Shown: piece after piece, positions 5,744 to 30,470 of the stretch | Layout: each line of letters begins with the position of its first letter | How positions within the stretch are numbered: position 1 is the stretch's first letter | Virus record (IMG/VR): IMGVR_UViG_3300021347_000002 | Span: 1 to 61,446 of that record | Strand: one strand, 5' to 3' | From: a virus | Lineage: Duplodnaviria; Caudoviricetes | Length of the DNA stretch: 61,446 bases | Program-made: the position numbers and the translations under genes | The notes under the pieces: model-generated | Database searches by the model: none | Seen by the model: the letters and a program-made list of their open reading frames with translations, nothing else | Told to the model about the DNA's origin: nothing

Positions 5744-7531
5744 ATGCCTTCCGAAGCAGACAAACGCAAGCGCGTTCTAGAGCCGCGTATCGACCCACAG
5801 TCTAAGCAGATGGACGTAGGCGGACTCATGATTCAGCCTACCAGTCTCCTCACTGCTCTACTGTATGGTTTCGCTCACCACCCTAATAATAAAGCTAAGG
5901 AGTTCTACTTCTGGAGAATCTGCGACGAACTCTGGAATCGCGAAGAGCTACCGGAGCCGATGATGGTTCGCCATCCTTGGGCTGAAAAGATGATTCGGGC
6001 TGCACTTAAAGACAAGTATCTAGCGATTGGCGGTTCAGCTTCATCCGGTAAATCACACACGATGGCCGCATGGGGTATCGTCCAATGGCTCTGCCAGCCA
6101 CGAGACACACTCGTCCTGATGACCTCCACCACCTTACGGGAAGCACGAAAAAGGATATGGGGTTCAGTAATGTCTTTATTGTCCGTGATCGATGGTGCGC
6201 CGATCAAGATACGGGATTCAATCGGTAACGCTGCTTATGTTGATGAGAACGGCACGCTTATCGAAAGAGCAGGTCTTTCTCTGATTGCAGCGGAGAAATC
6301 CAAAACACGCGAGGCAATCGGCAAATTCATCGGAATCAAGCAGAAGCGGGTAATTATGATCGGTGATGAACTTTCAGAACTTTCTGAAAGTATCTTGCAG
6401 GCTGGTCTGACTAACCTTTCTAAGAACCCGTTCTTCCAGATGATCGGCATGTCCAACCCGAATAGCCGATTCGACGCTTTCGGTGTTTGGTCAGAGCCAA
6501 AGAAAGGCTGGGAAGCCATTGATACGCAAACCGCTGACGAGTGGAAAACGAAGTGGGGCGGTAAGTATATCAGGCTCGACGGTGAGCGGAGTCCGAACAT
6601 TGTGTTAGGTGAGGTTAAGTATCCTTGGCTACCTACCGCCGAAAAGCTGGAGGAGGATCGATTGCTGTTAGGGCCAGAGTCTAGAGGCTATATGCGAATG
6701 GTCCGAGCCATCTTCTTTGATAGTGACGAGACAACCGGAATCTACTCCGAAGCTGAGATGGCAAATAGTGGTTCGTTAGGTGACGTAGAGTGGGCTGATA
6801 AACCAACCACCGTTGCCGGAATCGATCCGGCTTTCACTAACGGCGGTGACAGAACCATTATGTATACAGCAGAAGTCGGATACGCTCGAAATGGCCAGTA
6901 TGTATGCAAGTTAGGAGAAGCACTCCACTTAAACGATGATGCCACAAATAAAGCTGTTCCCCGAACCTACCAGATTGTCCATCAAATCATCGATCACTGT
7001 AAACGTAGGAATATCTCTGCTGACAACGTAGCTCTCGACTCCACCGGAGCAGGTGCGCCCTTCTGCGACGTTCTGGCTGGCGAATGGGAGAGTTCGTTCA
7101 TGCGCGTTACCTTTGGCGGAAAGGCTTCCGACAAGAGAGTCAGCATGAACAGCCAGCTTACAGGCGAAGAACTCTACACGAATCGTGTGTCAGAACTCTG
7201 GTTCGTCGGCAAAGAGTTGATGAGGACACAGCAAATCTACGGAATCTCGTCAGATCTTGCCCAAGAAATGTGCGCCAGAAACTACGATATGGTAAAGACT
7301 GGTTCCCTTAAAGTGAAGATCGAATCAAAATTAGAGTTCAAAGCTCGGTTCGGTCGTAGTCCTGACTTAGCTGATGCCGCATTTCTGGCTCTCGATTGCG
7401 CTCGCCAGCGTTTAGGACTCGTGGCTGTTGATCCACCGAAAGACGAAAAGGGTGCGGGGTTCAGGAAAGCGACTACGATTAAGAGTCTCAGTGGTGCGTT
7501 GAATAATCCTGATTCGTCACTACTCGCCTAA
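5744..7531 (+). CDS. terL: Terminase large subunit
   Basis: Walker A GSASSGKS, Walker B IMIGDE, SNP motif, nuclease motifs GIDPA and SPDLADA. Confidence 0.9.
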   Translation: MPSEADKRKRVLEPRIDPQSKQMDVGGLMIQPTSLLTALLYGFAHHPNNKAKEFYFWRICDELWNREELPEPMMVRHPWAEKMIRAALKDKYLAIGGSASSGKSHTMAAWGIVQWLCQPRDTLVLMTSTTLREARKRIWGSVMSLLSVIDGAPIKIRDSIGNAAYVDENGTLIERAGLSLIAAEKSKTREAIGKFIGIKQKRVIMIGDELSELSESILQAGLTNLSKNPFFQMIGMSNPNSRFDAFGVWSEPKKGWEAIDTQTADEWKTKWGGKYIRLDGERSPNIVLGEVKYPWLPTAEKLEEDRLLLGPESRGYMRMVRAIFFDSDETTGIYSEAEMANSGSLGDVEWADKPTTVAGIDPAFTNGGDRTIMYTAEVGYARNGQYVCKLGEALHLNDDATNKAVPRTYQIVHQIIDHCKRRNISADNVALDSTGAGAPFCDVLAGEWESSFMRVTFGGKASDKRVSMNSQLTGEELYTNRVSELWFVGKELMRTQQIYGISSDLAQEMCARNYDMVKTGSLKVKIESKLEFKARFGRSPDLADAAFLALDCARQRLGLVAVDPPKDEKGAGFRKATTIKSLSGALNNPDSSLLA

Positions 7532-7606
7532 AAAACTTTTTCTCCAGACCCTTAGTTCTATAATATATATATTATAGAACTAACGGTAAGACAGAAAAGT
7601 TTTTTA
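7529..7606 (+). repeat. ~77-bp palindromic element, copy 1
   Basis: Perfect 32-bp palindrome TTAGTTCTATAATATATATATTATAGAACTAA (7552-7583) with outer AAAAACTTTT/AAAAGTTTTT arms; begins at the terL TAA. Confidence 0.95.
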
Positions 7607-7631
7607 GGTGGGGGTCGCAGCAGACCCTCCG

Positions 7632-7660
7632 TTGACAGTTTTATTGAATTCTGGTAGTTT
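7632..7660 (+). promoter_or_regulatory. Sigma70-type promoter, probably leaderless
   Basis: TTGACA-17 bp-TAGTTT; in-frame GTG at 7668. Confidence 0.6.
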
Positions 7661-7667
7661 ATGTCGC

Positions 7668-7961
7668 GTGGCGACTAAACGATTCAAACGCTTGCCGTCT
7701 GGGCGAATCCAATATCACGGCGAGACTTACGCTGGTTTTAATAAGCCTAAGCGCGCCCCTAAAGGATCTAAGAAAAAATTTGTCGTTTTAGGTAAAGAAG
7801 GCGATAAAATAAAGAAAGTCGGTTTTGGCCACCGCGACTACAGTGATTTCACAAAACATAAGAACCCTAAGCGTAGAGCTAATTTCCGCGCTAGGCACAA
7901 CTGCAAAACTGCAAAAGATAAAACAACGGCTAGATACTGGGCCTGCAAGAAACTTTGGTAA
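7668..7961 (+). CDS. Small basic protein, DUF5754-like
   Basis: KKFVV...VGFGHRDYSDFTKHKNPKRRANFRARH...YWACKKLW pattern, recalled from phage and giant-virus basic proteins. Confidence 0.6.
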   Translation: MATKRFKRLPSGRIQYHGETYAGFNKPKRAPKGSKKKFVVLGKEGDKIKKVGFGHRDYSDFTKHKNPKRRANFRARHNCKTAKDKTTARYWACKKLW

Positions 7962-7963
7962 CC

Positions 7964-9166: not shown

Positions 9167-9183
9167 CCTAAATACTTTAGACA

Positions 9184-10171: not shown

Positions 10172-13100
10172 ATGACTGAATTCCAAGATTACTCAGATTG
10201 GGTAAAGCAAAGACCTGTCTCTTCAGACAGCACCCAAAACAAGGTAGACTACTCAAACTACCTCCGTAAAACCCACCTCGACTCGAATGAGTATTCTCTT
10301 GAAGTCGAGAACTCAATCCAGAACGAGCTTTATGGTAGCTTAGTTTCGTCAGGAGACATTGAAGAAGGCGATGTAGACGCATTTAGTTCTCTCACTACTC
10401 CTCAAGCAATATCGTCAGAGGCTAAAATGGATATTATCCAGTCTCGCATCGACCCTAAAAGCTCTAGCTGGCAGGCTATCACTGCTTATAAAACTGCGGA
10501 AGCAGACGGTCTACCTCCAGAAGAAGTTCAAAGATTGAAAACCAACGCAGGGTTTATCGCTGATCGGGAATATGACTCCATGAAGAGGCAGATGGTTCGC
10601 AATGGCGAGCTAGCCTTCGCTGCTTTCACTAACCTTGACGGAAGCCGTGAGATTGTCGCGGGCGATGCTGCTATTGGAGCTAACCTTAGCGATGCTTTGA
10701 AAGCTTCTAAGATGGGAGAAGTCACTTTATCTGACGCGCTTGCCGCGCAACAGCAGATGACTCCTGCATTTGGAACTAAGGTTCCCGCCTTCAAAGCTTC
10801 TCGCTATAGTCAAGCTTCAGCTATTATGTCTGAGTTGATTAGGGGCGATGAAAAAACCAACAACCTCCTACAGGCACACGCAGAACTCCGTGCTGGCGAA
10901 GAAGATGAAGGCTTCATGGACCAAGCGGCTAATGTGGTTAACGCGTTTGGTGATGCATTTGTAGGTATTTTCTCTTCTGAGAAACGGGAGCAGAACTCTG
11001 CTATGTTTAGAGCAAAAGATGTGACACGCGACGAAGCGGTCGCAGACATGATGCTTCGTGTCAACAGCTCGAACGCTTTACCGGAAGGTGAAGAGTTTAC
11101 TGCTCAAGAGATTGGAGCAGCCTTTGACCACGCGGTCCTTGAACGTGCGACAGCACAAAACATGTTTGACCAGTATACTGGTGAAGAAGCTGGACGCAAC
11201 CTCCGCATCTCTTCGACGGGTATGCCAATCATGGCGAGCGACGTTCTCGCAAACGAAGATCTCTTCAACGATACGGTTAAAGGATCTACTCTAGACGATA
11301 ATCAGAAAGATTTTCTTAGGCAGACTCGCACGTCAGTCCTTACTGACCGCTTTGAAGACTACTCTGAGATGTTTAAGCGTAGTGCTGTTGAAGACCAATG
11401 GAGCCAAGCCTTAATCGAAGGAGCCAACCAAGGTAAGAAGAATCATGAGATCTTAAATGACTTCTTGAAGGACGAAGACAACTACAGCCTCGTTACCCAG
11501 CGTTCAAAGGGAATCGCGTGGTCCCTTGTGAACTCTATCGGGACTCTGGCAGCAGCTATTCCAGCAGCAGCAGGTAACAAGATGGCTACTGACTACTTGG
11601 CCGACGTTGCTCAGAAGAATTCTGACAGGCAGCAAATTGCTCGCCTCTTTGGGCAGGAATATGGATACGCTGGCGAGATTGGTGAGACTATCGCCCCTAT
11701 GGTTACGGATATCTCGGCTACCGCCTTCCTTTCAGCCGGAACTTTCGGAACAGGAGGAGCTGCGTACGTTGCAGCGAAGTCTGGTTCCGTTGCAGTGGCT
11801 AAGACAGTCACTAAATCTTACGTCAACCACGTAGTTAAGAGTGTTCCAAGGTCTGTATTCAGAATTAAAGGAGCTAAGTATCAAGGTAAACTCTCTGACG
11901 CGATTAACATCGCAGTTAAAAAAGGTCACAGCGACCTAACGATGGATGTCTTGAAGGAATTCAACAGCGAAGTCGTCCGTAAGGCAGGTATCGCGAGTGC
12001 TGCTGCTATTCCGGCGGCTACTCGATCAAGTGCTGCTACCTACGGTGCCATCACCAATGCTCTTAGGTCTGATACAGATATGTCAGACGAAGAGATCCGC
12101 GACAAAGCTTTGGGTGCAGGTATGATGAGCGGGGCTATCACCGGAATTATTACTGGTGGATTCTCAGCACTCGGTAGGGGTGGTCTTGATGACGCTCTGC
12201 TTCGCGGGATGACTTTCCGTGACATGACTAAGGTGGTTAGCAAGATGACGAACGTCACGAACAAAACTAACCTTGATGCAAATGTTAAAGCGGCTCTTCG
12301 TAAGAGCATCGCAGAGTCTGCTAAGAAAGCAGGACTCGCTTCAGCGGCGTTAACGAAGAAAGCTAGTAGGATTAGATCCAGAGCGGGGGAGATTGCTGTA
12401 GCAGTAGGACGTAACTTCGGGGATGAAGCTGTTGAAGAAGGTCTAGATGAGTTCTTCAACTCGTTCGTCGAAGATGCCGCATTGGATCAAGACACTCCAA
12501 TGTTTGAACGACTCAGCCAGTCATACCACGCTGCTGTATTAGGTGGTATCATGGGTGCTGGTGCGCCTGCCGTACAGAAAGCTGGTGCAGCTCTACGCCG
12601 CCAGAGAGGGATCACCTTTTCACAGGTTGATAGGATGACTTCTGAGGTTGCCCAGAGTGCGTCGGAAAACCTCAAGGCTAATGGTAGCCCTGTTGCAGCA
12701 GCAGTCCTTGAACGTCTTTTCCAGACTCCTTTACGTGAGATGGTGGCCGCACCTGAAGTTACAGAAGCTGCACCTGAAGTTACAGAAGCTGCGCCTGAAG
12801 TTACAGAAGCTGCGCCTGAAGTTACAGAAGCTGCGCCTGAAGTTACAGAAGCTGCACCTGAAGTTACAGAAGCTGCACCTGAAGTTACAGAAGCTGATAC
12901 CTTAGAGGAGGTGGTAGAAGAGCCAACAGAAGTTGAAGGCGATCCTGCTTCGGTGGAAGAAGCCTTTAAAAATAATCCAGATGAAGCTAAGGATCTGAGT
13001 CTTGACGAAGTTAATGAAAGGGAATCCAACGAGGAACCTGATAAGAGTAAGCCTCGTAAGAAGGCTAAGAAGAAAGTCGGCAAGAAGAAAGTAGCTAAGA

Positions 13101-21279: not shown

Positions 21280-21419
21280 CTGTTCAGTTTAGCTTTCTTA
21301 TCTGCACGTTCCTTCATCTTACGGAAGCGGCGGTCTTCAGTCTTGATCGCATTCAAGGAGACGACCACAACGGTTAAGGGTAGCAACAATATGATGCCAA
21401 TGATTTGTAGGTAGTTCAT
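21276..21419 (-). CDS. Small membrane protein (47 aa)
   Basis: Translated by hand (MNYLQIIGIILLLPLTVVVVSLNAIKTEDRRFRKMK...); ATGA overlap with the next gene. Confidence 0.6.
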   Translation of the reverse strand: MNYLQIIGIILLLPLTVVVVSLNAIKTEDRRFRKMKERADKKAKLNR

Positions 21420-21420
21420 G

Positions 21421-21891: not shown

Positions 21892-21895
21892 TGTT

Positions 21896-22186
21896 TTATT
21901 TGGTTTTAGTTTCTGTTTGGTCTTTGATTACCTTCCGCCGACGACCAGCTGGAAGAAGAGATACGAATTCACCGGACCACCCACCTCTCGGTGAGTCGTT
22001 ACCGGTCTCGAAATGCTTGCCTTCCACGAAGCCAAGGCGAAGGAGGAGGTTCTTCAGGAAGAGCGCATGGTCTGCACTCTTCTTTGAGAACCTTCCGGTC
22101 CCGCTGTAGTAGTTAGGATACAGGCGATCCTTCACTCGGGCTAGTGAGGCGAGGGCTTCACCCTCACGGTGGGTTAATTTCTTCAT
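21896..22186 (-). CDS. Hypothetical protein
   Basis: 96-aa ORF abutting its neighbours; GNDSPRGG motif. Confidence 0.7.
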   Translation of the reverse strand: MKKLTHREGEALASLARVKDRLYPNYYSGTGRFSKKSADHALFLKNLLLRLGFVEGKHFETGNDSPRGGWSGEFVSLLPAGRRRKVIKDQTETKTK

Positions 22187-22437
22187 TAGTCTGTGTGGTT
22201 GTGTCCGATGTATACGGACATGTGTTCTTCAAGGTCAGCGACCTCATTCAGGATTTCCACAATCGGGCCATACTTCGCGGCGTCCAGATAGACGACACGG
22301 CTTAGGGTCCGGTTAGAGAGCCAGCACATGTTGCTCTCCTTGTGGTAGTTTAACGTCTCCCATCCGGCCAGTAGGCCGAGGGACTTCTGTAGTTGAGTCA
22401 GCTCAAGATGAGCCACTTCTATTGGCATTATTGTCAT
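22186..22437 (-). CDS. Hypothetical protein
   Basis: 83-aa ORF; TAATG junction with the downstream gene. Confidence 0.65.
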   Translation of the reverse strand: MTIMPIEVAHLELTQLQKSLGLLAGWETLNYHKESNMCWLSNRTLSRVVYLDAAKYGPIVEILNEVADLEEHMSVYIGHNHTD

Positions 22438-22448
22438 TGGTTTATTTG

Positions 22449-22631
22449 TTAAAGGTTAAGGGTTATTTGTTTAAGTCTAAGGGTGAAGCCTAACTCTTTC
22501 AGAGCTTGGATGTCACCATCAGTTAAGGACTTACGTCCTGTCAGCTTCTGTATGGATCGCTGCACTGCGGCATCTGCCACGTATGTCAGCGTGTTTCCAT
22601 ACACTTCTCGTTGGGTTACTTCTATTATCAT
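22449..22631 (-). CDS. Hypothetical protein
   Basis: 60-aa ORF (VYGNTLTY...LTGRKSLT...LKELG) with AAACCA leader. Confidence 0.65.
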   Translation of the reverse strand: MIIEVTQREVYGNTLTYVADAAVQRSIQKLTGRKSLTDGDIQALKELGFTLRLKQITLNL

Positions 22632-22658
22632 TGGTTTATTTGTTCTTTGGTTAAATGT

Positions 22659-23048
22659 TTACTCGCTTGCTCGATGGCAAGAGGTGCATAGAAAGACAAC
22701 GTCTAAGCGGTTCTCTTCTGCGTAGCCTTTGTGGTGGTGTGCTTCGATTCTCATCTGAGAGTTACCGCACTTGGTGCAAGATGTAGGTCTCGTAAGAACA
22801 CCCTTCTTGATCGCCCGCCTCACGGCTTCATGTGCGCTCTTCTTCTCGGGTGACTTCTTGTAGGCGGCTCTCCTTCGGTCAGCGTAGACATCTTTCTTTT
22901 TAAGGTAGTCCTTTCGCTGTGCTTTGTGTTTGCAGGCACGGCACTGCGTCTGAAATCCGTCTGGCTTGCAAGCGTCTCTGTTGAAGTCAATCTCAGGCAA
23001 CTCCTGCTTACAGCCGGAGCATAGTTTCATACTGGTCTCCTGTTTCAT
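22659..23048 (-). CDS. Zn-finger HNH endonuclease
   Basis: CSGCKQ...CRAC, CTKCG, EAHHH..Y, LCTSCH. Confidence 0.8.
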   Translation of the reverse strand: MKQETSMKLCSGCKQELPEIDFNRDACKPDGFQTQCRACKHKAQRKDYLKKKDVYADRRRAAYKKSPEKKSAHEAVRRAIKKGVLTRPTSCTKCGNSQMRIEAHHHKGYAEENRLDVVFLCTSCHRASE

Positions 23049-23049
23049 A

Positions 23050-23394
23050 CTAATACTTTGGTTCAATACATTGACGGGCGTAGTCCACATCACACTGGCG
23101 GATCTTACCTTTAACGGTAGCACGTAACGTCCTACGGTGGGCAGGAGTCAGCCGCTTGTTCTTGTTCATGTAGCGAAGCGCATCAGGGTGGGGGTCCACC
23201 CACATCCAGTTACGTTTTAGTCCGCCGTCTTCAACGTAACAACTAGTCAGGCTCAGTAGTCCTGCCCGAACGAGGGGGATGTCACTCTCCCTTACGTCAT
23301 CCGATTGTGTCCCCTCTGCGAGGGCCAGTATTCTTTTCTCGTCTGCTTTCATCAGTCTATTGTCTGCAAATTCCTTCCACGTTTTCTTGAACAC
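23050..23394 (-). CDS. Hypothetical protein
   Basis: ORF in the operon; true start may be the ATG at 23352. Confidence 0.6.
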   Translation of the reverse strand: MFKKTWKEFADNRLMKADEKRILALAEGTQSDDVRESDIPLVRAGLLSLTSCYVEDGGLKRNWMWVDPHPDALRYMNKNKRLTPAHRRTLRATVKGKIRQCDVDYARQCIEPKY

Positions 23395-23638
23395 ACTGCT
23401 TCAAAGCGTGGAGATGCTCACACATCTCAGCCTTGTATGCCTCTGCTTCTCCCTCACCGTCTCCTTGCTTTACGTAATGGTTACGTGGATGGAAGCTCTC
23501 GAACGGGAACTTGTCACAGGCTTCCTCTAACGCACTGTTGAAGGTGGTCCACTCCTTCAAGAGGCTATTCTTAGAAGAGCCATTCATGTGGATTACAGGC
23601 ACGCCTGCACTATCGTTTGTCATATCAGTTTCTTTCAT
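23357..23638 (-). CDS. Hypothetical protein
   Basis: PVIHMNGSS...HPRNHY motif; A-rich leader. Confidence 0.65.
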   Translation of the reverse strand: MKETDMTNDSAGVPVIHMNGSSKNSLLKEWTTFNSALEEACDKFPFESFHPRNHYVKQGDGEGEAEAYKAEMCEHLHALKQCVQENVEGICRQ

Positions 23639-23681
23639 TTGTTTATTTCTACTAGGTGTTAGTTCATTCCAACACCGACTA

Positions 23682-23708
23682 AGGCTATGGCCCGAAGACC
23701 ATAGCCTA
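23682..23708 (-). terminator. Intergenic hairpin (terminator or processing site)
   Basis: AGGCTATGG-8 nt-CCATAGCCT inverted repeat; no strong U-tract. Confidence 0.45.
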
Positions 23709-23716
23709 CGGCGGGG

Positions 23717-24037
23717 CTAGTGACTGAGGTTGAACGGGTTCTCTGGTGGCCCATGACACACGAAGAACCAGTCCTTCACTTCAGCATGCTCATCCTCTAC
23801 AAGCTTACCAATCCATGAGAAGATGTTCGCTTGTGGTGTCCCCCTCTGCACGACAGTCGAGGCTATCTTCACGGCAGGCTTGAGCTTGCGGTGGAACTCA
23901 GTATACGACACACGCTCTTTGTTCGCGGCGATCAACGAGTTGAATGCCTTCAACACAAGACGCTGGTCTTCAGCAGACAGCTTCTTGATCTGAGATACAC
24001 GATACTGGGTGCATTTAATCTGACCGTTTACAATCAT
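23717..24037 (-). CDS. Hypothetical protein
   Basis: 106-aa ORF immediately downstream of the DUF932 gene. Confidence 0.65.
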   Translation of the reverse strand: MIVNGQIKCTQYRVSQIKKLSAEDQRLVLKAFNSLIAANKERVSYTEFHRKLKPAVKIASTVVQRGTPQANIFSWIGKLVEDEHAEVKDWFFVCHGPPENPFNLSH

Positions 24038-24042
24038 ATTAA

Positions 24043-25086
24043 CTAAGCACTAAGGGTTGCAGTAAGGACACGGCGACCAGCCTCAATAGAAGACTCATCA
24101 GCAGACAAGAGGTAGTCAGCGAACCGTGTCTTGTGCTTGGCAGCAGTGCCATACTCACTTGAGTATGCCTTACTAGCATTCGACGTGCGGACCCCAACAC
24201 CTTCACCACTAGTCCAATACTCAGTGGCCCCATTCAAGACATCATACCATGTCTCACCACGGTTACCCTTCCCACCGAATGCGAGATCCGTGATACCGGA
24301 TACGGTGTTCATGGTACGGGCTGAGAACTTCTCAGTCTTCATGGCATCCTGCAAGAAGTAACCTGCCACGATGGCATCGATGTCCTGCTCGGCTACCCTC
24401 TGGGCAGCGAGGATCTCCATCGCTTCGATGTGCTTACGCTGCCCTTCAATCAGACCAGAGATGCTCTTCGATAGGTCGGCGCACTTCACATCCACATCAC
24501 CACGGTGGGTGACCTTCAGATTAATGAAGCCCTTCTCATTGGAGAGAGCCTGCATGATTGAGTTCTTACACACAAGACGAAGGCCAGACAGGAAGACCCG
24601 AAGAGCTTCCCCGTTGTGACCACTCGTCACGTTCAGGTAGGTGTTATGCTTGTCACCATTCACATCATACTCACCCATCTTATACGACATGAAGAACATC
24701 TTCAGGTTGTTGAGGGTTCCCATCGACGACAACGTGGAATCACAGTCAGTCCGCCTCAACGCTTTGCTGATGGCCTTAGCAATCACCTCGTTCTTGATGA
24801 CCGAATATTTATCAGTCGCCATGTGTAACGGCACACGCCTGTCGTCCGGCGTCCTCGCTATGAGAGCGCGCTGCTTAGGCAACGGGATTGTCAGCCCGTC
24901 CAACGTAGCGTGGACACGGGCCTTCTCTATCGGGTGGAACACACCGTGACGCTTGGCATCACGAGGAGTTATGAACTCACCCGCCGACTCTACCTCAAGT
25001 CCGTGATACATTTTGTAGTCGCTTCCTTGCGGAACGAGGACGGTATCGAGTTCATTGATGGCTTCTATTGTTGTATTTGTTTCCAT
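24043..25086 (-). CDS. DUF932-family protein
   Basis: YSVIKN, YLNVTSGHNG, RLVCKNS, HRG, TWYDVLNGATEY motifs. Confidence 0.8.
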   Translation of the reverse strand: METNTTIEAINELDTVLVPQGSDYKMYHGLEVESAGEFITPRDAKRHGVFHPIEKARVHATLDGLTIPLPKQRALIARTPDDRRVPLHMATDKYSVIKNEVIAKAISKALRRTDCDSTLSSMGTLNNLKMFFMSYKMGEYDVNGDKHNTYLNVTSGHNGEALRVFLSGLRLVCKNSIMQALSNEKGFINLKVTHRGDVDVKCADLSKSISGLIEGQRKHIEAMEILAAQRVAEQDIDAIVAGYFLQDAMKTEKFSARTMNTVSGITDLAFGGKGNRGETWYDVLNGATEYWTSGEGVGVRTSNASKAYSSEYGTAAKHKTRFADYLLSADESSIEAGRRVLTATLSA

Positions 25087-25155
25087 TGTATTGGTTTCTT
25101 TCTTTGGTTTTGGTTTTGTTTGGTGCTGAGACTATTCTCTCAGCTGGATTAATTG

Positions 25156-25183
25156 ATAATAGGTTGTGACTAACTTGTGTCAA
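25156..25183 (-). promoter_or_regulatory. Sigma70-type promoter for the DUF932 operon
   Basis: Minus strand TTGACA-16 bp-TATTAT with A-rich upstream sequence, followed by a GCTGAG/CTCAGC hairpin (25125-25144). Confidence 0.7.
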
Positions 25184-25263
25184 ATTTATTTTCTTTCCCC
25201 GTAGATACTAGCTTCCAGCCGATTCCGATACCAGATTCAAGGTAAATGGTAAGGGATTCGGGG

Positions 25264-25340
25264 TAAAAAACTATTCTCTCTTACCCTTAGTTCTATAATA
25301 TATATACTATAGAACTAAGGGTCTGGAGAAAAAGTTTTTA
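25264..25340 (-). repeat. ~77-bp palindromic element, copy 2 (inverted)
   Basis: Reverse complement reads TAAAAACTTTTTCTCCAGACCCTTAGTTCTATAGTATATATATTATAGAACTAAGGGTAAGAGAGAATAGTTTTTTA; begins at the TAA of ORF 25338-25718. Confidence 0.95.
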
Positions 25341-25718
25341 GATCGACATCTTGAACGAGGCACTCTTGAGCAGGTCTCCCAACATATCGTCGAGCGACTC
25401 ACTCAACTCCTGCTTGACGTTGTATTCCATGTCATGGGCTATGCTATCCATGTCTATGTGTGATGCCACGTCATCGATATCCATAGCGTATGCTACGTCA
25501 TCAGGATCTACCTCGACGTGCTTCGCCACGTCTTCATCTCTGATATGCTCGGCGATGTATCTCTCATCTATGAACAAGGCTAGGTTTTCGTAGTCAAGCA
25601 CACCATCTGATAAGACGATGTTCTTGAGTTCATCTTTAAACAACCAGATCGCTACGTTACGGATCTTAGTTGCTACTGTCTTCTTTGTGTTGGCGATTGC
25701 CTTCTTTATTGTTCTCAT
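25338..25718 (-). CDS. Hypothetical acidic protein with ~9-aa internal repeats
   Basis: IAEHIRDED/VAKHVEVDPDD/VAYAMDIDD/VASHIDMDS/IAHDM. Confidence 0.7.
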   Translation of the reverse strand: MRTIKKAIANTKKTVATKIRNVAIWLFKDELKNIVLSDGVLDYENLALFIDERYIAEHIRDEDVAKHVEVDPDDVAYAMDIDDVASHIDMDSIAHDMEYNVKQELSESLDDMLGDLLKSASFKMSI

Positions 25719-25826
25719 TATTTCTTATTGGTTTGGTTTGGGTCGTCAGTTTCAACGTGAAACAACGCACACCCTACAACGTCGATGCCTGTCGAGACAT
25801 AGACGCTGTGTGGGTATGGGTTTCTA

Positions 25827-26582
25827 CTAGTGGACACTAGTAAGTGCAGGCTCAACGACGAAGCCTGTCTCATCCTTCTTGGCCAGCCCCTTCTCAGTAA
25901 GGCCCACGACCACACCCTTCCTGTCGAGGAACCGAAGGTCTGTCTCGTCACCACTCACCACATCAAGCCCTAAGTATTTCTCAGGTAGCTGACCACGGAA
26001 CACGACTGCGGTGTTCACTCCCATGTGGGCCAGCTTCTTGATCCAGTCGTCATTGGTAACTTCAGACCGTGAGTAGGTGAGGTGGTAGTTGCTAGGCCAG
26101 CAGCCACCCTTCAATCGTTGGGATGCCTTAGCCCTAGACATTGACTTGGTGTAGTCGTAGAAGGTCACATCAGGGAAGAGATCGAAGATTGTCTGGTCCC
26201 TCTTATCGAAGAGGCTGGTCTTCTCACCTACCACAGTGAGCTTCTCCCATGAGATGTCCGATGTCAGGTTGAGTCGGAAGCATGGCTTGAGTCCGGCTCT
26301 CTTAGCTGACTTGATACTGGACCTGATCTCCTTGATCAGCTGCTCCATGAAGGCTTCACGATCTTCAAAGAACATCTTGGTCTTGTCGATACGTGCTTGC
26401 TGCACGGTCTTCATGATGCCTCGGCCTGCTGTATTGAGGCAGGCTAAGGCACATCCCTTCGATGCATAAGGGCAGGTATTATATCCTGATATCTTGCTAG
26501 GGGCTAGGTGAATACCGTAAGTGCGGTATCCGATTGCTTCTCCCTTGATTGTCTTTGTGTTTCCGGCGTTTAGTAGTTTCAT
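25827..26582 (-). CDS. Gp88-like phage protein
   Basis: CPYASKGCALACLNTAGRG, RLNLTSDI, FYDYTK, YHLTYSRSE, GDETDLRFLD, GLTEKG. Confidence 0.8.
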   Translation of the reverse strand: MKLLNAGNTKTIKGEAIGYRTYGIHLAPSKISGYNTCPYASKGCALACLNTAGRGIMKTVQQARIDKTKMFFEDREAFMEQLIKEIRSSIKSAKRAGLKPCFRLNLTSDISWEKLTVVGEKTSLFDKRDQTIFDLFPDVTFYDYTKSMSRAKASQRLKGGCWPSNYHLTYSRSEVTNDDWIKKLAHMGVNTAVVFRGQLPEKYLGLDVVSGDETDLRFLDRKGVVVGLTEKGLAKKDETGFVVEPALTSVH

Positions 26583-26589
26583 TTTTCTT

Positions 26590-26618
26590 ATTGGTTATTG
26601 GTTATTGGTTATTGGTTT
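26590..26618. repeat. TTGGTTA heptamer tandem repeat in gene leader
   Basis: About 4 copies here and about 3 at 26954-26973; reads (AACCAAT)n on the coding strand. Confidence 0.85.
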
Positions 26619-26630
26619 TACTAGTGTCCA

Positions 26631-26945
26631 CTAGTATAGTTCTTCGACTGTCTTCTCCCACTCTTCGAGAGATCGATCAGTCCACTTCGTCCAACGTGGT
26701 CGGATGCCGTGTTCTTCTTTGTATAGATCCCAGTATTCCTCCCATAAGAGAGTCCGTTTGAAATCACTTACAGTCTCACAACCATAGTGTTTGCAGTGGT
26801 CGATGAGATCATCTGAATAAGTTAGGAAGGTCGGTTTAATACATGAGCCTTCATTCAACTTGATGAGTTCTCCCATATAAAGACGCATCTCCTTACTCTC
26901 GGCAAGCATGACAGATGGGTGTTCGGTTTCATTATTTGTTTGCAT
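26631..26945 (-). CDS. Hypothetical protein
   Basis: 104 aa, YWDLYKEEHGIRPRW motif; its stop lies inside an ACTAGT palindrome. Confidence 0.7.
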   Translation of the reverse strand: MQTNNETEHPSVMLAESKEMRLYMGELIKLNEGSCIKPTFLTYSDDLIDHCKHYGCETVSDFKRTLLWEEYWDLYKEEHGIRPRWTKWTDRSLEEWEKTVEELY

Positions 26946-26985
26946 TATTCTATTTGGTTATTGGTTATTGGTTTACTAGTGTCCA

Positions 26986-27297
26986 CTAGTTGTCTCGGTT
27001 GAGGGGGTCGAGGTTGAATTGCTCTGCGACTTCTGGGGATAATTCAAAACAGATATACTCATGCTCTGCATTACCATATCGGACTCCCACCGTAAGCCAT
27101 CTACACTCTTCGTTTGAGTAAAAACGATAGGCATCTAGCTTATCTGTGGTTTGGCATAAGTATTTAGCCGTGTCTGTTACCGTCCTCTCGTAGTGCGGGT
27201 TATCTTTATTGTATTGAGCGGTCTTGGCCCGCATCACTTCCCACAAATCAAGAGGGACTGCTCCAGAGTAAGGCTGGTTCCAATGGTTACTTGTCAT
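26986..27297 (-). CDS. Hypothetical protein, paralog of the C-terminal domain of 27287-27988
   Basis: Shares AVPLDLWE, DKLDAYR, VG(V/I)RYG and FNLDPLNRDN; start reassigned to ATG 27297. Confidence 0.75.
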   Translation of the reverse strand: MTSNHWNQPYSGAVPLDLWEVMRAKTAQYNKDNPHYERTVTDTAKYLCQTTDKLDAYRFYSNEECRWLTVGVRYGNAEHEYICFELSPEVAEQFNLDPLNRDN

Positions 27298-27988
27298 TGT
27301 CTCGGTTGAGGGGGTCGAGGTTAAACAAAGCAGCCGTTTCATTTGTAACGAATGGTGAGTCGTAATCATCAACACCCATACCGTATCGGATACCTACGAT
27401 CAGCTTGAAGCTACTACCCGCAGTCAATATTCCATCACCTCTGGTGGGGTATATACGATAGGCGTCTAGCTTGTCAGATTTTCTGGCGTATAAGGATACC
27501 CTCTCCATGAGTCGGTCATGAGTTACTTCACCGTATATTTCATACGTTATGGCACGGAACAGTTCCCACAAATCAAGTGGCACCGCTTCGGTATATTCGT
27601 TATACCAATGACGACCTTCCTCTCGTTTCTCATGGCACTCTAGTTCGATACGGCGTTCCTCCTCTTGCTCACGCTCCCACCGTTCTGCGTCAGCAGCATT
27701 CTCCAGTAGGCGTTCTGCTTTTTCGGTGACCTTTTCTTTGTCCATAAGATGACCGCCAATACGACCAGTATCGAATCCGATGACCCACCTATTATTCTCC
27801 TCTTCGGAGTAGGTCAGACCACCTTCACTAAACCCCCATTCATTCAGTTCGTCGTAGTGCTTCCCATACCAACAATGGCCTAAAGGAATGGATATGTATC
27901 CGTTGTAATCTCCGCAGCAATCACGTTGGATGGGGTGTGGGCGGAGGAAGAGGAATGGTGGTATTGTTTTATCGTTCTTTGTTTGCAT
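27287..27988 (-). CDS. Two-domain hypothetical protein
   Basis: N-domain NGYISIP..H.WYG...GGLTYS...WVIGFDT; C-domain duplicated in the downstream gene. Confidence 0.75.
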   Translation of the reverse strand: MQTKNDKTIPPFLFLRPHPIQRDCCGDYNGYISIPLGHCWYGKHYDELNEWGFSEGGLTYSEEENNRWVIGFDTGRIGGHLMDKEKVTEKAERLLENAADAERWEREQEEERRIELECHEKREEGRHWYNEYTEAVPLDLWELFRAITYEIYGEVTHDRLMERVSLYARKSDKLDAYRIYPTRGDGILTAGSSFKLIVGIRYGMGVDDYDSPFVTNETAALFNLDPLNRDNDK

Positions 27989-27992
27989 TGTT

Positions 27993-28214
27993 CTATTTGG
28001 TTTTTGTTTTTGTTTTTGTTTTACTAGTGGTCACTAGTAGTTCAGATATTGTTTCGTCAGCTTCTACCTTGCTTACACAGTGGTAGTATTTTGTCTTTAA
28101 ATAAAAGCCACGGCCACATGGCGTTGGCTTGCTTATGCGGTTATGCTCTACAATGTAGGCTCCCCACTTGTCCCGCCTCGTAAAGCAGAACCCGTTTGGG
28201 TGTGTGTATTTCAT
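27993..28214 (-). CDS. Hypothetical protein
   Basis: 73 aa; C-terminus reads through an ACTAGT palindrome and the next leader (LVTTSKTKTKTKTK). Confidence 0.6.
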   Translation of the reverse strand: MKYTHPNGFCFTRRDKWGAYIVEHNRISKPTPCGRGFYLKTKYYHCVSKVEADETISELLVTTSKTKTKTKTK

Positions 28215-28573
28215 ATGTTTCTTATTGTGATTCCTCTACATGTCGAGGGTATCTCGGTTGGTTCTATCGACTCAGGATCTGACATGACGTAGCCGAACTT
28301 CACACCGTTCCACTCATAACCTTTCAGGTCACATGGAACATGGTGCAACGGTTCGTCATACCGGAATCGGGGTTCGTCAGTGTATCGAATGGCGTTGGAG
28401 ATGGTGACGTAGCCAACAAGCTTTGCCTTACCTTTGCCAGTCTGGATGACTCCAACCCTCTTGCCTACAAGCGAGGCAAGGGAGTTGGTGTTTCTTGTTT
28501 CAATTACCTTCTCTCCTGCGAGAATGAGGTCGGTCCAGTTCTTCTGGCTATCGTTGCAATTGAACGCTTTCAT
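28211..28573 (-). CDS. ASCH-domain protein
   Basis: LILAGEKVIETR (GxKxxExR motif), LVGYVTI. Confidence 0.8.
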   Translation of the reverse strand: MKAFNCNDSQKNWTDLILAGEKVIETRNTNSLASLVGKRVGVIQTGKGKAKLVGYVTISNAIRYTDEPRFRYDEPLHHVPCDLKGYEWNGVKFGYVMSDPESIEPTEIPSTCRGITIRNI

Positions 28574-28593
28574 GTTTTACTAGTGGTCACTAG

Positions 28594-28752
28594 TTATTTT
28601 CTACTTCTACGTTTCTTTACTTCATTGACTGCTTCCATCACAAGGATGTAAAGGAAGACAGGCATTGCTAATACGCTAGCGATTACTAGCAGGACTTCCG
28701 GCCCCTTCATTCCTTGAAGGGACTCGCCAATTACTTTTGCTATTTCGTTCAT
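28594..28752 (-). CDS. Small membrane protein (52 aa)
   Basis: Translated by hand: MNEIAKVIGESLQGMKGPEVLLVIASVLAMPVFLYILVMEAVNEVKKRRSRK; flanked by two ACTAGT palindromes. Confidence 0.65.
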   Translation of the reverse strand: MNEIAKVIGESLQGMKGPEVLLVIASVLAMPVFLYILVMEAVNEVKKRRSRK

Positions 28753-28777
28753 AGTCTGTTTGGTTTACTAGTGGACA

Positions 28778-29320
28778 CTAGTCGATTGTGATAAGGGATT
28801 GGATATCGTCCAATGAAGATTGGACCTTAGCAGCTGCATCCGTATCAGGTTCCATGTCTTCCAGCTTCGCTTTTACGCGGCGAAGGGTTTTCAGGATGTT
28901 AGCCAGTTCATCTTCTGCCTTCTTTTCTTTCGGTTCGACATACTCGCCCCAAAGCTCAGGATCTTTCTTGAACCTTCCCCAACATCCACCAGCGCGGCTG
29001 TTGAGTTTCTTGGCGGAAATCTTCTCACCCTTCCAATCAAGGTAGAGCTTGTAAGCTCCTAGCATATCAGCATTGAAGTCAGGCCATTCCCATCCCGCTA
29101 GATAGCACATATTGGCTATCTCGGTGAAGTAAGGGCAGGCATTCGTGCTTCGCTTACTAGTGGCCACTAGTGCTTCAAAGATTGCTAAGCTGGCAGCATT
29201 GTCTTCCCCTTCAGCTGCGAGGGTTTCCCATCGGTTGAATAGGGTAAGGGATGCTTGGTCTATGCTATCAAACATTAGGTCGATAGCGGCTACGAGGTCA
29301 TTTGCAGTTGTCTTTTTCAT
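28778..29320 (-). CDS. Hypothetical protein, first gene of the leftward early block
   Basis: ATG at 29320 follows an AAACCAAATAAGCAA leader; stop lies in an ACTAGT palindrome. Confidence 0.7.
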   Translation of the reverse strand: MKKTTANDLVAAIDLMFDSIDQASLTLFNRWETLAAEGEDNAASLAIFEALVATSKRSTNACPYFTEIANMCYLAGWEWPDFNADMLGAYKLYLDWKGEKISAKKLNSRAGGCWGRFKKDPELWGEYVEPKEKKAEDELANILKTLRRVKAKLEDMEPDTDAAAKVQSSLDDIQSLITID

Positions 29321-29608
29321 TTGCTTATTTGGTTTATTGTTTAAGGCATTGTTGCCCTTCAACCTTACAGGGAGGCAATCATCTTTTTCCTTGTACCTAC
29401 AAGGGTTCCTGATCCAGACAGCCCCCCTTTGCCCAAGCCTTCAATCCGAAGGGTGAATCCTGAATCCCTGAACCATTATTCTTGATTAGTGGCTCGTGGC
29501 TCGGGATTCGTTATTAATAGTTCGCGCGCGGACTAGATAGACGCCACCGGTAGGGTCGGCTTTTTTTTCTCGCGGCGCGCCGTATACATATACGTATTTA
29601 GAAAAAAA

Positions 29609-29636
29609 TTGACGGTGGGGCTACGTTTAGTAGGGT
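29609..29636 (+). promoter_or_regulatory. Possible sigma70-type promoter, leaderless
   Basis: A-tract, then TTGACG-16 bp-TAGGGT; in-frame ATG at 29643. Confidence 0.45.
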
Positions 29637-29900
29637 ATGAGCATGCCGGAATACGACCCGAAGAAGAAAAAAGAGTATTACCAGAAACATCGAAAAGAGC
29701 GTCTAAGATACCAAAACGACTATTATGAGCGGACGAAAAGTCGGAGGGAGCGAACTTTTGAGATTATGGAAGAGCTGGAGCCTAGTCAGTTTAATACGTA
29801 TAAACAGCAGTTAAGTGACTACAACAGAGAGTATTACAAGAAAAACAGGGCCAAGATATTGCGAAAGCGTGCGGAGGCGAGAGCGAAAAAGTCGAAATAA
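29637..29900 (+). CDS. Small basic Lys/Arg/Tyr-rich protein
   Basis: KEYYQKHRKE/REYYKKNRAK repeats; start at 29637 or 29643. Confidence 0.65.
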   Translation: MSMPEYDPKKKKEYYQKHRKERLRYQNDYYERTKSRRERTFEIMEELEPSQFNTYKQQLSDYNREYYKKNRAKILRKRAEARAKKSK

Positions 29901-29974
29901 AAACTTTTCTTCCAGACCTTTAGTTCTATAGTATATATATTATAGAACTAAGGGTAAGACAGAAAAGTTTTTTT
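29898..29974 (+). repeat. ~77-bp palindromic element, copy 3
   Basis: TAAAAACTTTTCTTCCAGACCTTTAGTTCTATAGTATATATATTATAGAACTAAGGGTAAGACAGAAAAGTTTTTTT; begins at the TAA of ORF 29637-29900. Confidence 0.95.
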
Positions 29975-30462: not shown

Positions 30463-30470
30463 CGCCAAGT

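What the first reader, a model, noticed from the sequence alone, without database searches (positions are those of the whole stretch)
7529..29974. Three conserved ~77-bp palindromic elements with lox/FRT-like geometry, each fused to a stop codon
Seen: copies at 7529-7606 (+), 25264-25340 (-) and 29898-29974 (+) share TAAAAACTTTT..TCCAGACC-YTTAGTTCTATAR-TATATATA-TTATAGAACTAAS-GGTAAGA.AGAA.AGTTTTT. Each starts exactly at the TAA of an unrelated gene and has the same polarity relative to that gene. The core is 13-8-13, and copy 1 contains a perfect 32-bp palindrome. The asymmetric flanks (CCAGA versus TAAGA) are also conserved. Established: 13-8-13 is the geometry of loxP and FRT, and the arm AGTTCTATA resembles the FRT arm. 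Ordinary terminators do not conserve ~77 nt including an AT-only loop. Inference: this could be a target for a site-specific recombinase or telomere resolvase, a cruciform origin or packaging signal, an RNase III-type processing site, or a TAA-targeting miniature mobile element. I recognised no tyrosine recombinase or protelomerase here, so any acting protein would be host-encoded or an uncharacterised ORF.
Basis: partly seen in the sequence, partly recalled or inferred. Interest (0 to 1): 0.9.

Follow-up and report, generated by a model that had tools for sequence, protein, structure and literature searches.

The report
Conserved phage terminator-like hairpin repeats
Three near-identical long hairpins in an uncultured marine phage most likely mark where transcripts end or are damped, not where a recombinase cuts, and the copies in each genome are unusually kept alike.

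Summary
Three ~77-nt copies lie at 7529-7606(+), 25264-25340(-) and 29898-29974(+). Each begins at a TAA stop and is co-oriented with its gene.

Each copy is an A-tract, an interrupted ~35-bp hairpin and a T-tract. The 8-bp "spacer" is itself palindromic, so there is no lox/FRT-like asymmetric core.

The element is family-wide. A covariance model finds it after the large terminase gene in 74 of 80 related loci; the other six are cut off or displaced. All ten near-complete genomes carry 2-3 copies at the same gene junctions. The stems covary. The A/T tracts and lower stem keep their sequence. A sigma-70-like promoter follows the terminase copy in 44 of 51 distinct flanks.

No recombinase was found in 46 ORFs.

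Two features are unusual:
- Copies within a genome are homogenised: 0.92 identity within genomes against 0.71 between.
- Orientation flips between close relatives, and neither RNA strand folds better.

Best reading (0.55): a bidirectional intrinsic terminator/attenuator within terminator-promoter boundaries, kept uniform by gene conversion.

Rivals: a DNA site for a phage protein, such as the adjacent I-HmuI-like gene product; or an RNase III site. No transcript ends could be mapped.

The parts
7529..7606 (+). Copy 1, fused to the TAA of the large terminase gene. RNA fold: lower stem 7525-7541 with 7594-7610, internal loop 7542-7547 / 7588-7593, upper stem 7548-7565 with 7570-7587, loop 7566-7569.
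25264..25340 (-). Copy 2, fused to the TAA of a 126-aa ORF in the variable early region. This site is present only in the window and its close relative G005.
29898..29974 (+). Copy 3, fused to the TAA of the 87-aa basic ORF. In four relatives this site holds two tandem copies 119 nt apart.
5744..7531 (+). Large terminase gene, upstream of copy 1.
   Evidence: phrog_2, E 3.2e-14
7632..7660 (+). Sigma-70-like promoter after copy 1: TTGACA, 17 nt, TAGTTT. The GTG start of the DUF5754 gene at 7668 follows 7 nt later, so the mRNA would be leaderless. Conserved in relatives.
7668..7961 (+). DUF5754 gene, first gene after copy 1.
25338..25718 (-). 126-aa ORF ending at copy 2. No family found.
25156..25183 (-). 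Sigma-70-like promoter (TTGACA, 16 nt, TATTAT; 11 of 12 matches) about 80 nt downstream of copy 2, ahead of the DUF932 gene 24043-25086(-).
29609..29636 (+). Promoter-like site of the 87-aa gene: A-run, TTGACG, 16 nt, TAGGGT, abutting the ATG. The same layout occurs in relative G003.
29637..29900 (+). 87-aa basic ORF ending at copy 3. Conserved at this position in all ten genomes (50-91% identity to the window).
30007..30438 (+). 143-aa I-HmuI-like (NUMOD4-type) beta-rich protein gene, directly after copy 3 with no promoter between. It is the candidate sequence-specific partner in the rival reading.
30435..30462 (+). Sigma-70-like promoter (TTGACA, 16 nt, TATACT; 11 of 12 matches) at the start of the 752-aa gene.

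Best explanation
Each element is a bidirectional, intrinsic-terminator-type hairpin: an A-tract, a long interrupted stem-loop and a T-tract. It ends or damps host-RNA-polymerase transcription at the boundary between two co-directional transcription units.

At the terminase site and at copy 2, a sigma-70-like promoter restarts transcription just downstream. This makes a terminator-promoter cassette. At the 87-aa site the hairpin follows a short, strongly promoted early gene, and four relatives carry it as a tandem pair. There it acts as a leaky attenuator ahead of a gene with no promoter of its own.

Fusion to TAA is simple compaction: the stop codon supplies the first A's of the A-tract.

The near-identity of copies within one genome is inferred to come from frequent gene conversion between the copies. 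Palindromes are fragile and recombinogenic, and the phage encodes a PD-(D/E)XK exonuclease. Because the arms are palindromic, conversion or local inversion can install the element in either orientation.

Shown: anatomy, conservation, covariation, context, homogenisation and flipping. Inferred: termination itself and the conversion mechanism.
For: Anatomy:
- The hairpin is stable on both strands.
- Among 77 distinct instances, the A-run is at least 5 in 70 and the T-run at least 5 in 68. The T-run is at least 4 in all 77.

Conservation:
- Model R1 finds the element downstream of the terminase gene in 74 of 80 loci. Of the six misses, five are contigs that end there; the sixth has the element 205 nt further on, after an inserted small ORF.
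- It is found in 25 of 27 further loci; the two misses are truncated.
- All ten near-complete genomes carry 2-3 copies, always between co-directional genes at the same junctions.

Covariation:
- 89% of cells pair, against 42-50% when partners are slid.
- 16 of 20 pairs show compensatory changes.
- The covariation score is 0.588, against at most 0.21 in controls.
- The parts that matter for termination (A/T tracts, lower stem) keep their sequence while the apex drifts.

Promoter context:
- TTGACA lies within 90 nt downstream in 49 of 51 distinct terminase-site flanks.
- The full pattern TTGACA-N16-18-TAnnnT-N4-9-start is present in 44 of 51.
- An 11-of-12 promoter follows copy 2.
- The 87-aa gene has its own promoter.
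- Four genomes have tandem doubling at that site.

Orientation: sense folds better in 43 and antisense in 34 of 77 instances, as expected for a symmetric device.

A working precedent exists in the PeSL terminator-promoter cassettes of T4-type phages: PMC2839356 (passages read) and PMC4122927 (abstract read).
Against: - No transcript 3' ends could be examined. Only assembled contigs were on offer.
- The stem next to the T-tract is AU-rich. It has one closing C-G pair and then U-A pairs, and the element is 24-26% G+C. This is unlike textbook strong terminators.
- The same phage uses a canonical GC-rich hairpin plus T6 at 35947-35985.
- Termination does not need the copies to be alike, yet identity over the 62-nt core averages 0.92 within genomes and 0.71 between.
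- The apex differs sharply between genomes whose terminases are 96.6-98.3% identical.
- In 9 of 60 distinct terminase-site instances the palindrome extends well beyond the T-tract (z below -3). In at least four lineages the outer arms repeat the lineage's upper-stem motif. A terminator cannot use this.
- The gene after copy 3 has no promoter between it and the hairpin, so termination there must be partial.
Confidence: 0.55

Rival explanations
1. The element acts as DNA. It would be a palindromic, cruciform-prone site recognised by a phage-encoded sequence-specific protein whose specificity co-evolves with the arms. The best candidate is the 143-aa I-HmuI-like protein encoded directly after the 87-aa-site copy; the P4-alpha/D5-like primase-helicase at 55470-57665(-) is another. 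Binding or nicking there could start replication or recombination, and nick-stimulated repair from another copy would homogenise the copies in a homing-like way.
For: - Copies in one genome share both the upper stem and the non-palindromic internal loops. Genomes differ: 0.92 identity within against 0.71 between.
- The asymmetric part is kept, but its orientation relative to transcription is not. The copies are opposed in 7 of 10 genomes and flipped between terminases 98.3% identical. A duplex-DNA site tolerates this; a specific RNA determinant does not.
- Neither RNA strand folds better.
- In 9 of 60 instances the palindrome is extended, with arm motifs repeated in the order -> -> <- <-.
- The centre is AT-rich.
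- The I-HmuI-like gene follows the hairpin in all ten genomes.
- Among conserved genes it diverges unusually fast and in step with the hairpin: 98.6% identity where hairpins match, and 85-91% where they differ while core proteins stay at 96-99%.
- Its N-terminal half is variable and its C-terminal half nearly invariant.
- Its model (pLDDT 88.6) has I-HmuI as top PDB match (E 0.018, probability 0.94). One homologue carries PF07463.
Against: - The arm motif occurs nowhere else in the window beyond chance: 7 extra two-mismatch hits against 5.3 expected.
- The universal A-run and T-run abutting the stem, the gene-end position and the downstream promoter are what a terminator needs, not what a binding site needs.
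- The gene lies next to the hairpin, so correlated divergence may be mere linkage.
- The fold match is weak (TM 0.33) and no catalytic HNH motif was identified.
- Extended palindromes are a minority: 49 of 60 have z above -2.
- Pairing continues to the very centre, which half-site recognition does not require.
Confidence: 0.2
2. The primary role is RNA processing. Read-through transcripts would fold into a ~35-bp interrupted double-stranded RNA that host RNase III cuts at the internal loop. This would separate the upstream and downstream messages and set their stability, as at the intergenic RNase III sites of phage T7 (recalled knowledge).
For: - A long two-part stem with a symmetric 6x6 internal loop is more duplex than termination needs.
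- The element is intergenic between co-directional genes.
- In some lineages pairing extends beyond the T-tract, which only a read-through RNA could use.
- Rfam gives only sub-threshold pre-microRNA-like matches, meaning a generic RNase III-substrate shape.
Against: - Orientation flips change the RNA's loop sequences to their complements.
- There is no preference for sense-strand stability.
- RNase III needs neither the A/T tracts nor identical copies.
- Two of three copies are followed by their own promoter. The downstream message then need not be cut out of a polycistron.
- No RNA data are available.
Confidence: 0.12
3. The element is a miniature mobile element (MITE/REPIN-like) that inserts at TAA or A-rich targets in either orientation.
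For: - It is a palindromic unit with a conserved asymmetric interior found in both orientations.
- The window lineage gained a third copy. That copy also carries 11 nt of flank (CCCCGAATCCC) identical to the terminase-site flank of other lineages.
- Nested, palindrome-within-palindrome forms exist.
Against: - There are only 2-3 copies per genome.
- The same two junctions are occupied in 10 of 10 genomes and in essentially every terminase locus with sequence available.
- No empty site and no target duplication were seen.
- No transposase family was found in 46 ORFs.
- The extra flank copied with copy 2 points to recombination, not precise transposition.
Confidence: 0.05
4. The element is a target of a site-specific recombinase or telomere resolvase. 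Such an enzyme would invert, excise or resolve DNA between copies.
For: - Inverted 13-bp arms surround a TA-rich centre, and copies 2 and 3 are inverted repeats flanking the 4.5-kb early region.
- Many ORFs, including the 3569-aa one, have no recognisable family. An unknown enzyme therefore cannot be excluded.
Against: - The centre is symmetric, so it cannot give directionality.
- Arm and loop lengths vary between relatives.
- No integrase, resolvase or protelomerase family was found.
- Gene order around the copies is the same in all ten genomes even where copies are mutually inverted.
- Three resolution sites would fragment the genome.
- Four relatives carry two direct copies only 119 nt apart.
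Confidence: 0.03

Closest known systems
Bidirectional Rho-independent (intrinsic) terminators
   Same: An A-tract, a stable hairpin and a T-tract. The position is intergenic, at the 3' end of a gene. The element works irrespective of orientation, and a tandem doubling follows a strongly promoted gene.
   Different: The stem is about 35 bp and interrupted by a 6x6 loop. Its base is AU-rich and the element is 24-26% G+C. Copies are homogenised within each genome. Some lineages extend the palindrome beyond the T-tract. The phage's one canonical GC-rich terminator looks quite different.
PeSL (promoter-early stem-loop) cassettes of T4-type phages (PMC2839356, passages read; PMC4122927, abstract read)
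   Same: A repeated intergenic cassette combining a terminator stem-loop with a sigma-70-like promoter. The shared sequence lets copies recombine. Cassettes sit at boundaries of variable gene modules; copy 2 lies inside the hypervariable early region.
   Different: PeSLs are many per genome and cluster in hyperplastic regions. They often have G-tract/C-tract stems, and their exchange was shown by experiment. Here there are 2-3 copies at fixed conserved junctions with AT-rich stems. Copy 3 has no promoter. Exchange is only inferred from homogenisation.
RNase III processing sites of phage T7
   Same: Intergenic hairpins with a lower stem, an internal loop and an upper stem. Several similar copies occur per genome.
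   Different: T7 sites are strand-specific RNA signals. Here orientation flips and neither strand folds better. The A/T tracts are unexplained by this reading.
loxP / FRT tyrosine-recombinase sites (geometry recalled)
   Same: Two ~13-bp inverted arms about an 8-bp centre in copies 2 and 3.
   Different: The centre is palindromic rather than asymmetric. The arms are part of a much longer hairpin. The geometry is not conserved in relatives, and no recombinase gene was found.
Target sites of free-standing HNH homing/nicking endonucleases such as I-HmuI (PDB 1u3e; the nicking property is recalled)
   Same: A gene for an I-HmuI-like protein sits directly beside the repeated element. Gene-conversion-like homogenisation of the copies is what endonuclease-stimulated repair would give.
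   Different: No catalytic motif was recognised, and no cleavage or binding has been shown. Homing sites are usually single, inside conserved genes, and not hairpins.

Membership tests
Intrinsic (Rho-independent) terminator, bidirectional type | Stable RNA hairpin immediately followed by a U-tract | tested here: met
   Folding energy -35 to -39 kcal/mol, z -7.5 to -9.6. T-run at least 5 in 68 of 77 and at least 4 in 77 of 77 distinct instances.
Intrinsic (Rho-independent) terminator, bidirectional type | Mirror A-tract upstream, so that the opposite strand also reads hairpin plus U-tract | tested here: met
   A-run at least 5 in 70 of 77 instances. The antisense strand folds about as well.
Intrinsic (Rho-independent) terminator, bidirectional type | Position at the 3' end of a transcription unit, outside coding sequence | tested here: met
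   All 26 copies in ten genomes lie between co-directional genes, starting at or up to 45 nt after a stop codon. Promoter-like sites follow two of the three window copies.
Intrinsic (Rho-independent) terminator, bidirectional type | G+C-rich stem base next to the U-tract (typical of strong terminators, not strictly defining) | tested here: not met
   The lower stem is C-G followed by U-A pairs, and the element is 24-26% G+C.
Intrinsic (Rho-independent) terminator, bidirectional type | Transcript 3' ends in the U-tract | not testable with these tools
   Only assembled contigs of runs were served; no raw RNA reads.
PeSL-type terminator-promoter cassette | Stem-loop and sigma-70-like promoter joined in one repeated intergenic unit | tested here: inconclusive
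   A promoter lies 26 nt after copy 1 and about 80 nt after copy 2. None lies between copy 3 and the next gene. The promoter is not part of the repeated sequence itself.
PeSL-type terminator-promoter cassette | Many copies concentrated in hyperplastic regions flanking orphan genes | tested here: not met
   2-3 copies per genome at conserved junctions.
loxP/FRT-type recombination site | Inverted arms around an asymmetric spacer | tested here: not met
   The central 8 bp are palindromic. Copy 1 is a perfect 32-bp palindrome. Pairing runs to a 4-nt loop.
loxP/FRT-type recombination site | Cognate tyrosine recombinase encoded with the sites | tested here: not met
   No such family in 46 ORFs against Pfam or 25 against PHROGs. 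ORFs with no family remain.
loxP/FRT-type recombination site | Rearrangement between sites | tested here: inconclusive
   Gene order is the same in ten genomes. Contigs cannot show rare forms.
RNase III processing site (T7 type) | About two turns or more of double-stranded RNA with an internal loop | tested here: met
   Lower stem of about 12-17 bp, 6x6 loop, upper stem of about 18 bp.
RNase III processing site (T7 type) | Signal conserved on the transcribed strand | tested here: not met
   Orientation relative to the gene is opposed between sites in 7 of 10 genomes. Sense folds better in 43 and antisense in 34 of 77.
MITE / REPIN-like mobile element | Variable occupancy with empty sites, and many dispersed copies | tested here: not met
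   The same junctions are filled in 10 of 10 genomes. 74 of 80 and 25 of 27 terminase loci are positive, and the misses are truncated or displaced.
Protelomerase (telomere resolvase) target | Single palindromic site per genome with an encoded protelomerase | tested here: not met
   2-3 sites per genome and no such enzyme family found.

The most novel reading that the evidence does not exclude
The hairpins would be self-homogenising DNA sites tied to the small I-HmuI-like protein encoded beside them. That protein, with a variable N-terminal recognition half and an invariant C-terminal half, would bind or nick the extruded or duplex palindrome. Repair from another copy would spread each new arm variant to all copies in either orientation. 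Site and protein would then co-evolve as a genome-specific pair. The same breaks could serve as recombination-dependent replication starts or as module-exchange points. Transcription termination would be a by-product or second function.
Probability: 0.15. Interest if true: 0.7.

Novelty: new variant of a known kind. Interest (0 to 1): 0.4.

Why it matters
The phage family is abundant in marine metagenomes: several hundred terminase-bearing contigs, and DNA runs from nine studies beyond the likely source samples. It has no cultured member in the phage collection searched, and its host may be Verrucomicrobiota.

These hairpins, together with the conserved promoters after them, give a first map of its transcription units.

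More generally, the family shows a regulatory hairpin evolving in concert at distant sites of one small genome. The copies flip orientation, and in some lineages the palindrome grows to about 150 nt. This is a clean natural case for studying gene conversion and palindrome dynamics in phage genomes. If the adjacent I-HmuI-like protein is involved, it would be a new kind of site-protein pair.

The work also shows that a lox/FRT-looking parse of an AT-rich palindrome is not evidence for a recombinase site.

Tried and rejected
RNA and read evidence. The look-up of sequencing runs listed 21 runs, all kept only as contigs. One was an RNA run, X20, with a share of 0.06. Read laying on 10600-30500 with X1, X2, X4 and X20 gave the following:
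- Contigs break at the hairpin centres (25308/25310 and 29949/29930), as assemblers do at palindromes.
- No strand-changing joints appear at the copies.
- The loose ends at 25339 and 29973 are the flanks of copy 1 cross-aligning to copies 2 and 3.
- X20 RNA contigs stop near 29876-29899 and at 25243. Contig ends cannot show transcript ends, and DNA carry-over is possible.
None of this counts for or against any reading.

Rfam. No family reached gathering score in the window. Around copy 1 only sub-threshold microRNA-precursor models matched, which reflects generic hairpin shape.

G.U versus A.C counting on minimum-energy folds (187 G.U, 68 A.C one-by-one mismatches). I rejected this as a strand test because folding itself favours G.U. 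I used the sense/antisense energy comparison instead.

Phage records:
- The element itself found one chance 28-nt match.
- The terminase found no match.
- The DNA polymerase is at most 28% identical to Bacteroides and other phages.
So no cultured relative or published transcript map could be used.

Giant ORF and 752-aa ORF against PDB sequences: nothing significant. The idea of a virion RNA polymerase with hairpin promoters (N4-like, recalled) therefore found no support.

The 87-aa protein: Pfam found nothing below E 0.04. The protein atlas gave only unnamed clusters and sub-threshold structural rows.

Isolated arm motifs elsewhere in the window: none above chance.

Literature. Four searches found the PeSL papers and a quasipalindrome template-switch paper (PMC7202029, listing abstract only). 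None described this element or phage family. This covers only those four searches of the held library. Supplementary files were not consulted.

Full report
**What is there.** The window is a whole IMG/VR virus record of 61,446 bp, rated 100% complete. Its first 1,863 bases recur at the end at 90.7% identity, so the unit genome is about 59.6 kb. Aligned in gene sense, 71 columns are invariant.

The core pattern occurs only at these three places, against 0.00 expected by chance. A covariance model run without filters finds no fourth copy. Each copy begins at the TAA of an ORF: the large terminase 5744-7531, a 126-aa ORF 25338-25718(-), and an 87-aa basic ORF 29637-29900. All three are co-oriented with their gene.

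**Anatomy.** The element is one long interrupted hairpin, not a 13-8-13 site.
- An A-run and lower stem (AAAAAC UUUUUCU) pair with AGAAAAG UUUUUU.
- A 6x6 internal loop follows (CCAGAC / UAAGAC).
- An ~18-bp upper stem runs to a 4-nt loop.

Folding energy is -35 to -39 kcal/mol, z -7.5 to -9.6. The antisense strand folds almost as well. The "8-bp spacer" is itself palindromic, and copy 1 is a perfect 32-bp palindrome. The element has 24-26% G+C in a 47% G+C genome.

**Relatives.** Three close relatives carry the exact core at the same sites. The terminase identifies a large uncultured family: 191 and 433 matching stretches in IMG/VR in two scans, all at least 82% identical in protein. There is no match among deposited phage genomes.

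Downstream of the terminase stop, nearly every locus has a hairpin of the same build. An alignment of 56 sequences gives a consensus of 20 pairs, 16 with compensatory changes. On that structure:
- 89% of cells pair, against 42-50% when partners are slid.
- The covariation score is 0.588, against at most 0.21 in controls.
- 12 of 13 upper-stem pairs show double changes.

The A-run, the T-run and the lower stem keep their sequence. Model R1 hits 74 of 80 terminase loci. Five misses are contigs that end at the gene. The sixth carries the element 205 nt further on, behind an inserted small ORF. In 25 of 27 further loci the element is also found, and the two misses are truncated.

In the nine relatives' near-complete records that were held, the counts are as follows (a tenth handle, L035, was not held):
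- Four have three copies: the terminase site plus a tandem pair, 119 nt apart, after the 87-aa gene homologue.
- One has the window's three sites.
- Four have two copies.

All copies lie between co-directional genes at the same junctions. The tandem pair is a duplication of the hairpin plus the last ~29 nt of the upstream ORF.

**Context.** After the terminase copy there is a conserved sigma-70-like promoter whose -10 box lies 6-7 nt before the GTG start of a DUF5754 gene. TTGACA is present within 90 nt in 49 of 51 distinct flanks, and the full pattern in 44 of 51.

Copy 2 is followed after about 80 nt by an 11-of-12 promoter ahead of a DUF932 gene. The 87-aa gene has its own promoter abutting its start codon, in the window and in G003. 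The hairpin or hairpins follow it, and then a 143-aa gene comes with no promoter between. The next strong promoter is at 30435-30462.

Copies 2 and 3 thus bracket the divergently transcribed early region. That region is the most variable part of the genome. One canonical GC-rich terminator with T6 exists at 35947-35985.

**Two unusual properties.** First, evolution is concerted. Over the 62-nt core, copies within a genome are 0.92 identical on average: at least 0.90 in eight genomes and 0.74 in two. Between genomes the average is 0.71. The non-palindromic internal loops are homogenised too.

Second, orientation is not fixed. The asymmetric interior has the same polarity relative to the genes in three genomes: the window, G005 and G002. 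The terminase copy and the 87-aa copy are opposed in seven. G001 and G002 differ in orientation at the terminase site although their terminases are 98.3% identical.

Consistent with this, neither RNA strand is favoured. Mean fold energy is -33.4 sense and -33.2 antisense, with sense better in 43 and antisense in 34 of 77 distinct instances.

In a minority of lineages (9 of 60 distinct terminase-site instances, z below -3) the palindrome extends far beyond the T-tract, to about 150 nt. In at least four lineages the outer arms repeat the lineage-specific upper-stem motif. The three window copies show no such extension.

**Interpretation.** The parts that never vary are the A-run, the closing pair and lower stem, and the T-run. 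The T-run is at least 4 in 77 of 77 and at least 5 in 68 of 77 instances; the A-run is at least 5 in 70 of 77.

The following together are what a bidirectional intrinsic terminator needs:
- The invariant A-run, lower stem and T-run.
- The gene-end position.
- The promoter that follows.
- The tandem doubling behind a strongly promoted short gene.
- The survival of the hairpin when a gene is inserted upstream of it.
- Indifference to orientation.

I therefore read the elements as terminators or attenuators that insulate transcription units. Functionally they resemble the PeSL terminator-promoter cassettes of T4-type phages, where the stem-loops terminate and the cassettes recombine (PMC2839356, passages read; PMC4122927, abstract read).

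Homogenisation is then explained by gene conversion. The phage has a PD-(D/E)XK exonuclease. Palindromes are hot spots of template switching (PMC7202029, listing abstract), and palindromic arms allow conversion in either orientation. Copy 2 also carries 11 nt of flank identical to the terminase-site flank of other lineages. This points to copying by recombination rather than transposition.

Termination itself and the conversion mechanism are inferred, not shown. Confidence is 0.55.

**What argues against, and the rivals.**
- The stem base is AU-rich, unlike the phage's own canonical terminator.
- Termination does not require identical copies.
- The apex changes fast between close relatives.
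- Extended palindromes are useless to a terminator.

A DNA-level reading accounts for these points (0.2). The 143-aa gene beside the element is present in all ten genomes. It matches an HNH-endonuclease PHROG over residues 6-61. One homologue carries PF07463, which I recall as the NUMOD4 motif. Its model has pLDDT 88.6 and is beta-rich with a final beta-beta-alpha unit. The best PDB match is I-HmuI, at E 0.018, probability 0.94 and TM 0.33.

This protein diverges faster than the core proteins and in step with the hairpin: 98.6% identity where hairpins match, and 85-91% where they differ while core proteins stay at 96-99%. Its N-terminal half is variable and its C-terminal half nearly invariant. 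Linkage could explain the correlation, and no binding has been tested.

The other rivals:
- An RNase III role (0.12) fits the shape but not the flips or the A/T tracts.
- A mobile element (0.05) is contradicted by fixed sites and missing enzymes.
- A recombinase or resolvase target (0.03) is contradicted by fixed sites, a symmetric centre and missing enzymes.

**Limits.** No raw RNA or DNA reads were available. No cultured relative exists in the collection searched. Host assignment rests only on two MAG labels from Verrucomicrobiota.

Noticed in passing
window 1-1863 and 59584-61446: The two ends of the record are a 1,863-nt direct repeat at only 90.7% identity (99% in the first 200 nt, 85-93% further in). 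The record overshoots a ~59.6-kb unit genome and joins two strain variants, which is probably why IMG/VR calls it linear.
   Followed up: partly
window 26596-26635, 26951-26990, 27999-28038, 28555-28594, 28743-28782: There are five copies of a second repeat, TTTTACTAGTG-NN-CACTAGT (a 16-bp palindrome). They lie between small minus-strand early genes and are often preceded by GGTT-rich runs. This looks like an operator or small-hairpin motif of the early region (family D7).
   Followed up: no
window 35947-35985 (+): One canonical strong terminator: 16-pair stem with 9 G-C pairs, then T6. It follows a 65-aa ORF downstream of the 442-aa gene 34336-35664. It looks quite unlike the three AT-rich hairpins.
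   Followed up: no
window 10172-20881 (+): A 3569-aa ORF with no Pfam, PHROG or PDB-sequence relative except a low-complexity histone-H1-like stretch. It contains in-frame tandem repeats of 21 nt (12725-12917) and 15 nt (13059-13385). It is only 27-36% identical, in parts, in other lineages of the family.
   Followed up: partly
window 7655-7670 and 29631-29645; relatives in L091-L122: Promoter -10 boxes sit only 0-7 nt before the start codons (GTG 7668; ATG 29637/29643). This spacing is conserved across the family and suggests leaderless mRNAs.
   Followed up: partly
L216, L222, L225-L230, L233, L237-L239, L241; G010-G012: An unrelated group of 36-37-kb phage genomes from one metagenome shares only a 26%-identical DNA polymerase match with the window. 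It has one long hairpin per genome whose outer stem has the same sequence (AAAACTTTTCTCTC ... GAGAGAAAAGTTTT). Next to it lie several direct repeats of GAAAAGTTTTTTGAGAG and of GTCAAAACGTTAGTAAA in an ~800-nt intergenic region, which looks like iterons. It is unclear whether the shared motif is convergence, a shared host signal or exchange.
   Followed up: partly
L137-L139 (about 3286-3490): In one sublineage a small ORF is inserted between the terminase stop and the hairpin. The hairpin and the promoter after it are retained.
   Followed up: no
L031, L040, L051, L059, L067, L072, L070, L075; G004 both sites: The palindromes have grown to about 140-190 nt with the T-tract inside the stem. For L031 the energy is -110 kcal/mol over 230 nt. 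In G004 the whole nested structure is present at both sites.
   Followed up: partly
P0045; L270, L271: A homologue of the 143-aa protein is labelled as from an Akkermansiaceae MAG. Two 7-kb contigs with the terminase sit in an 'uncultured Opitutae' MAG. Both are Verrucomicrobiota, a weak host hint that rests on binning only.
   Followed up: no
window 5098-5733 (-) and 20863-21279 (-): A 211-aa protein with an N-terminal homeodomain-like HTH (weak small-terminase-like hit) is transcribed divergently from the large terminase. A 138-aa protein carries a DnaA C-terminal HTH domain.
   Followed up: no
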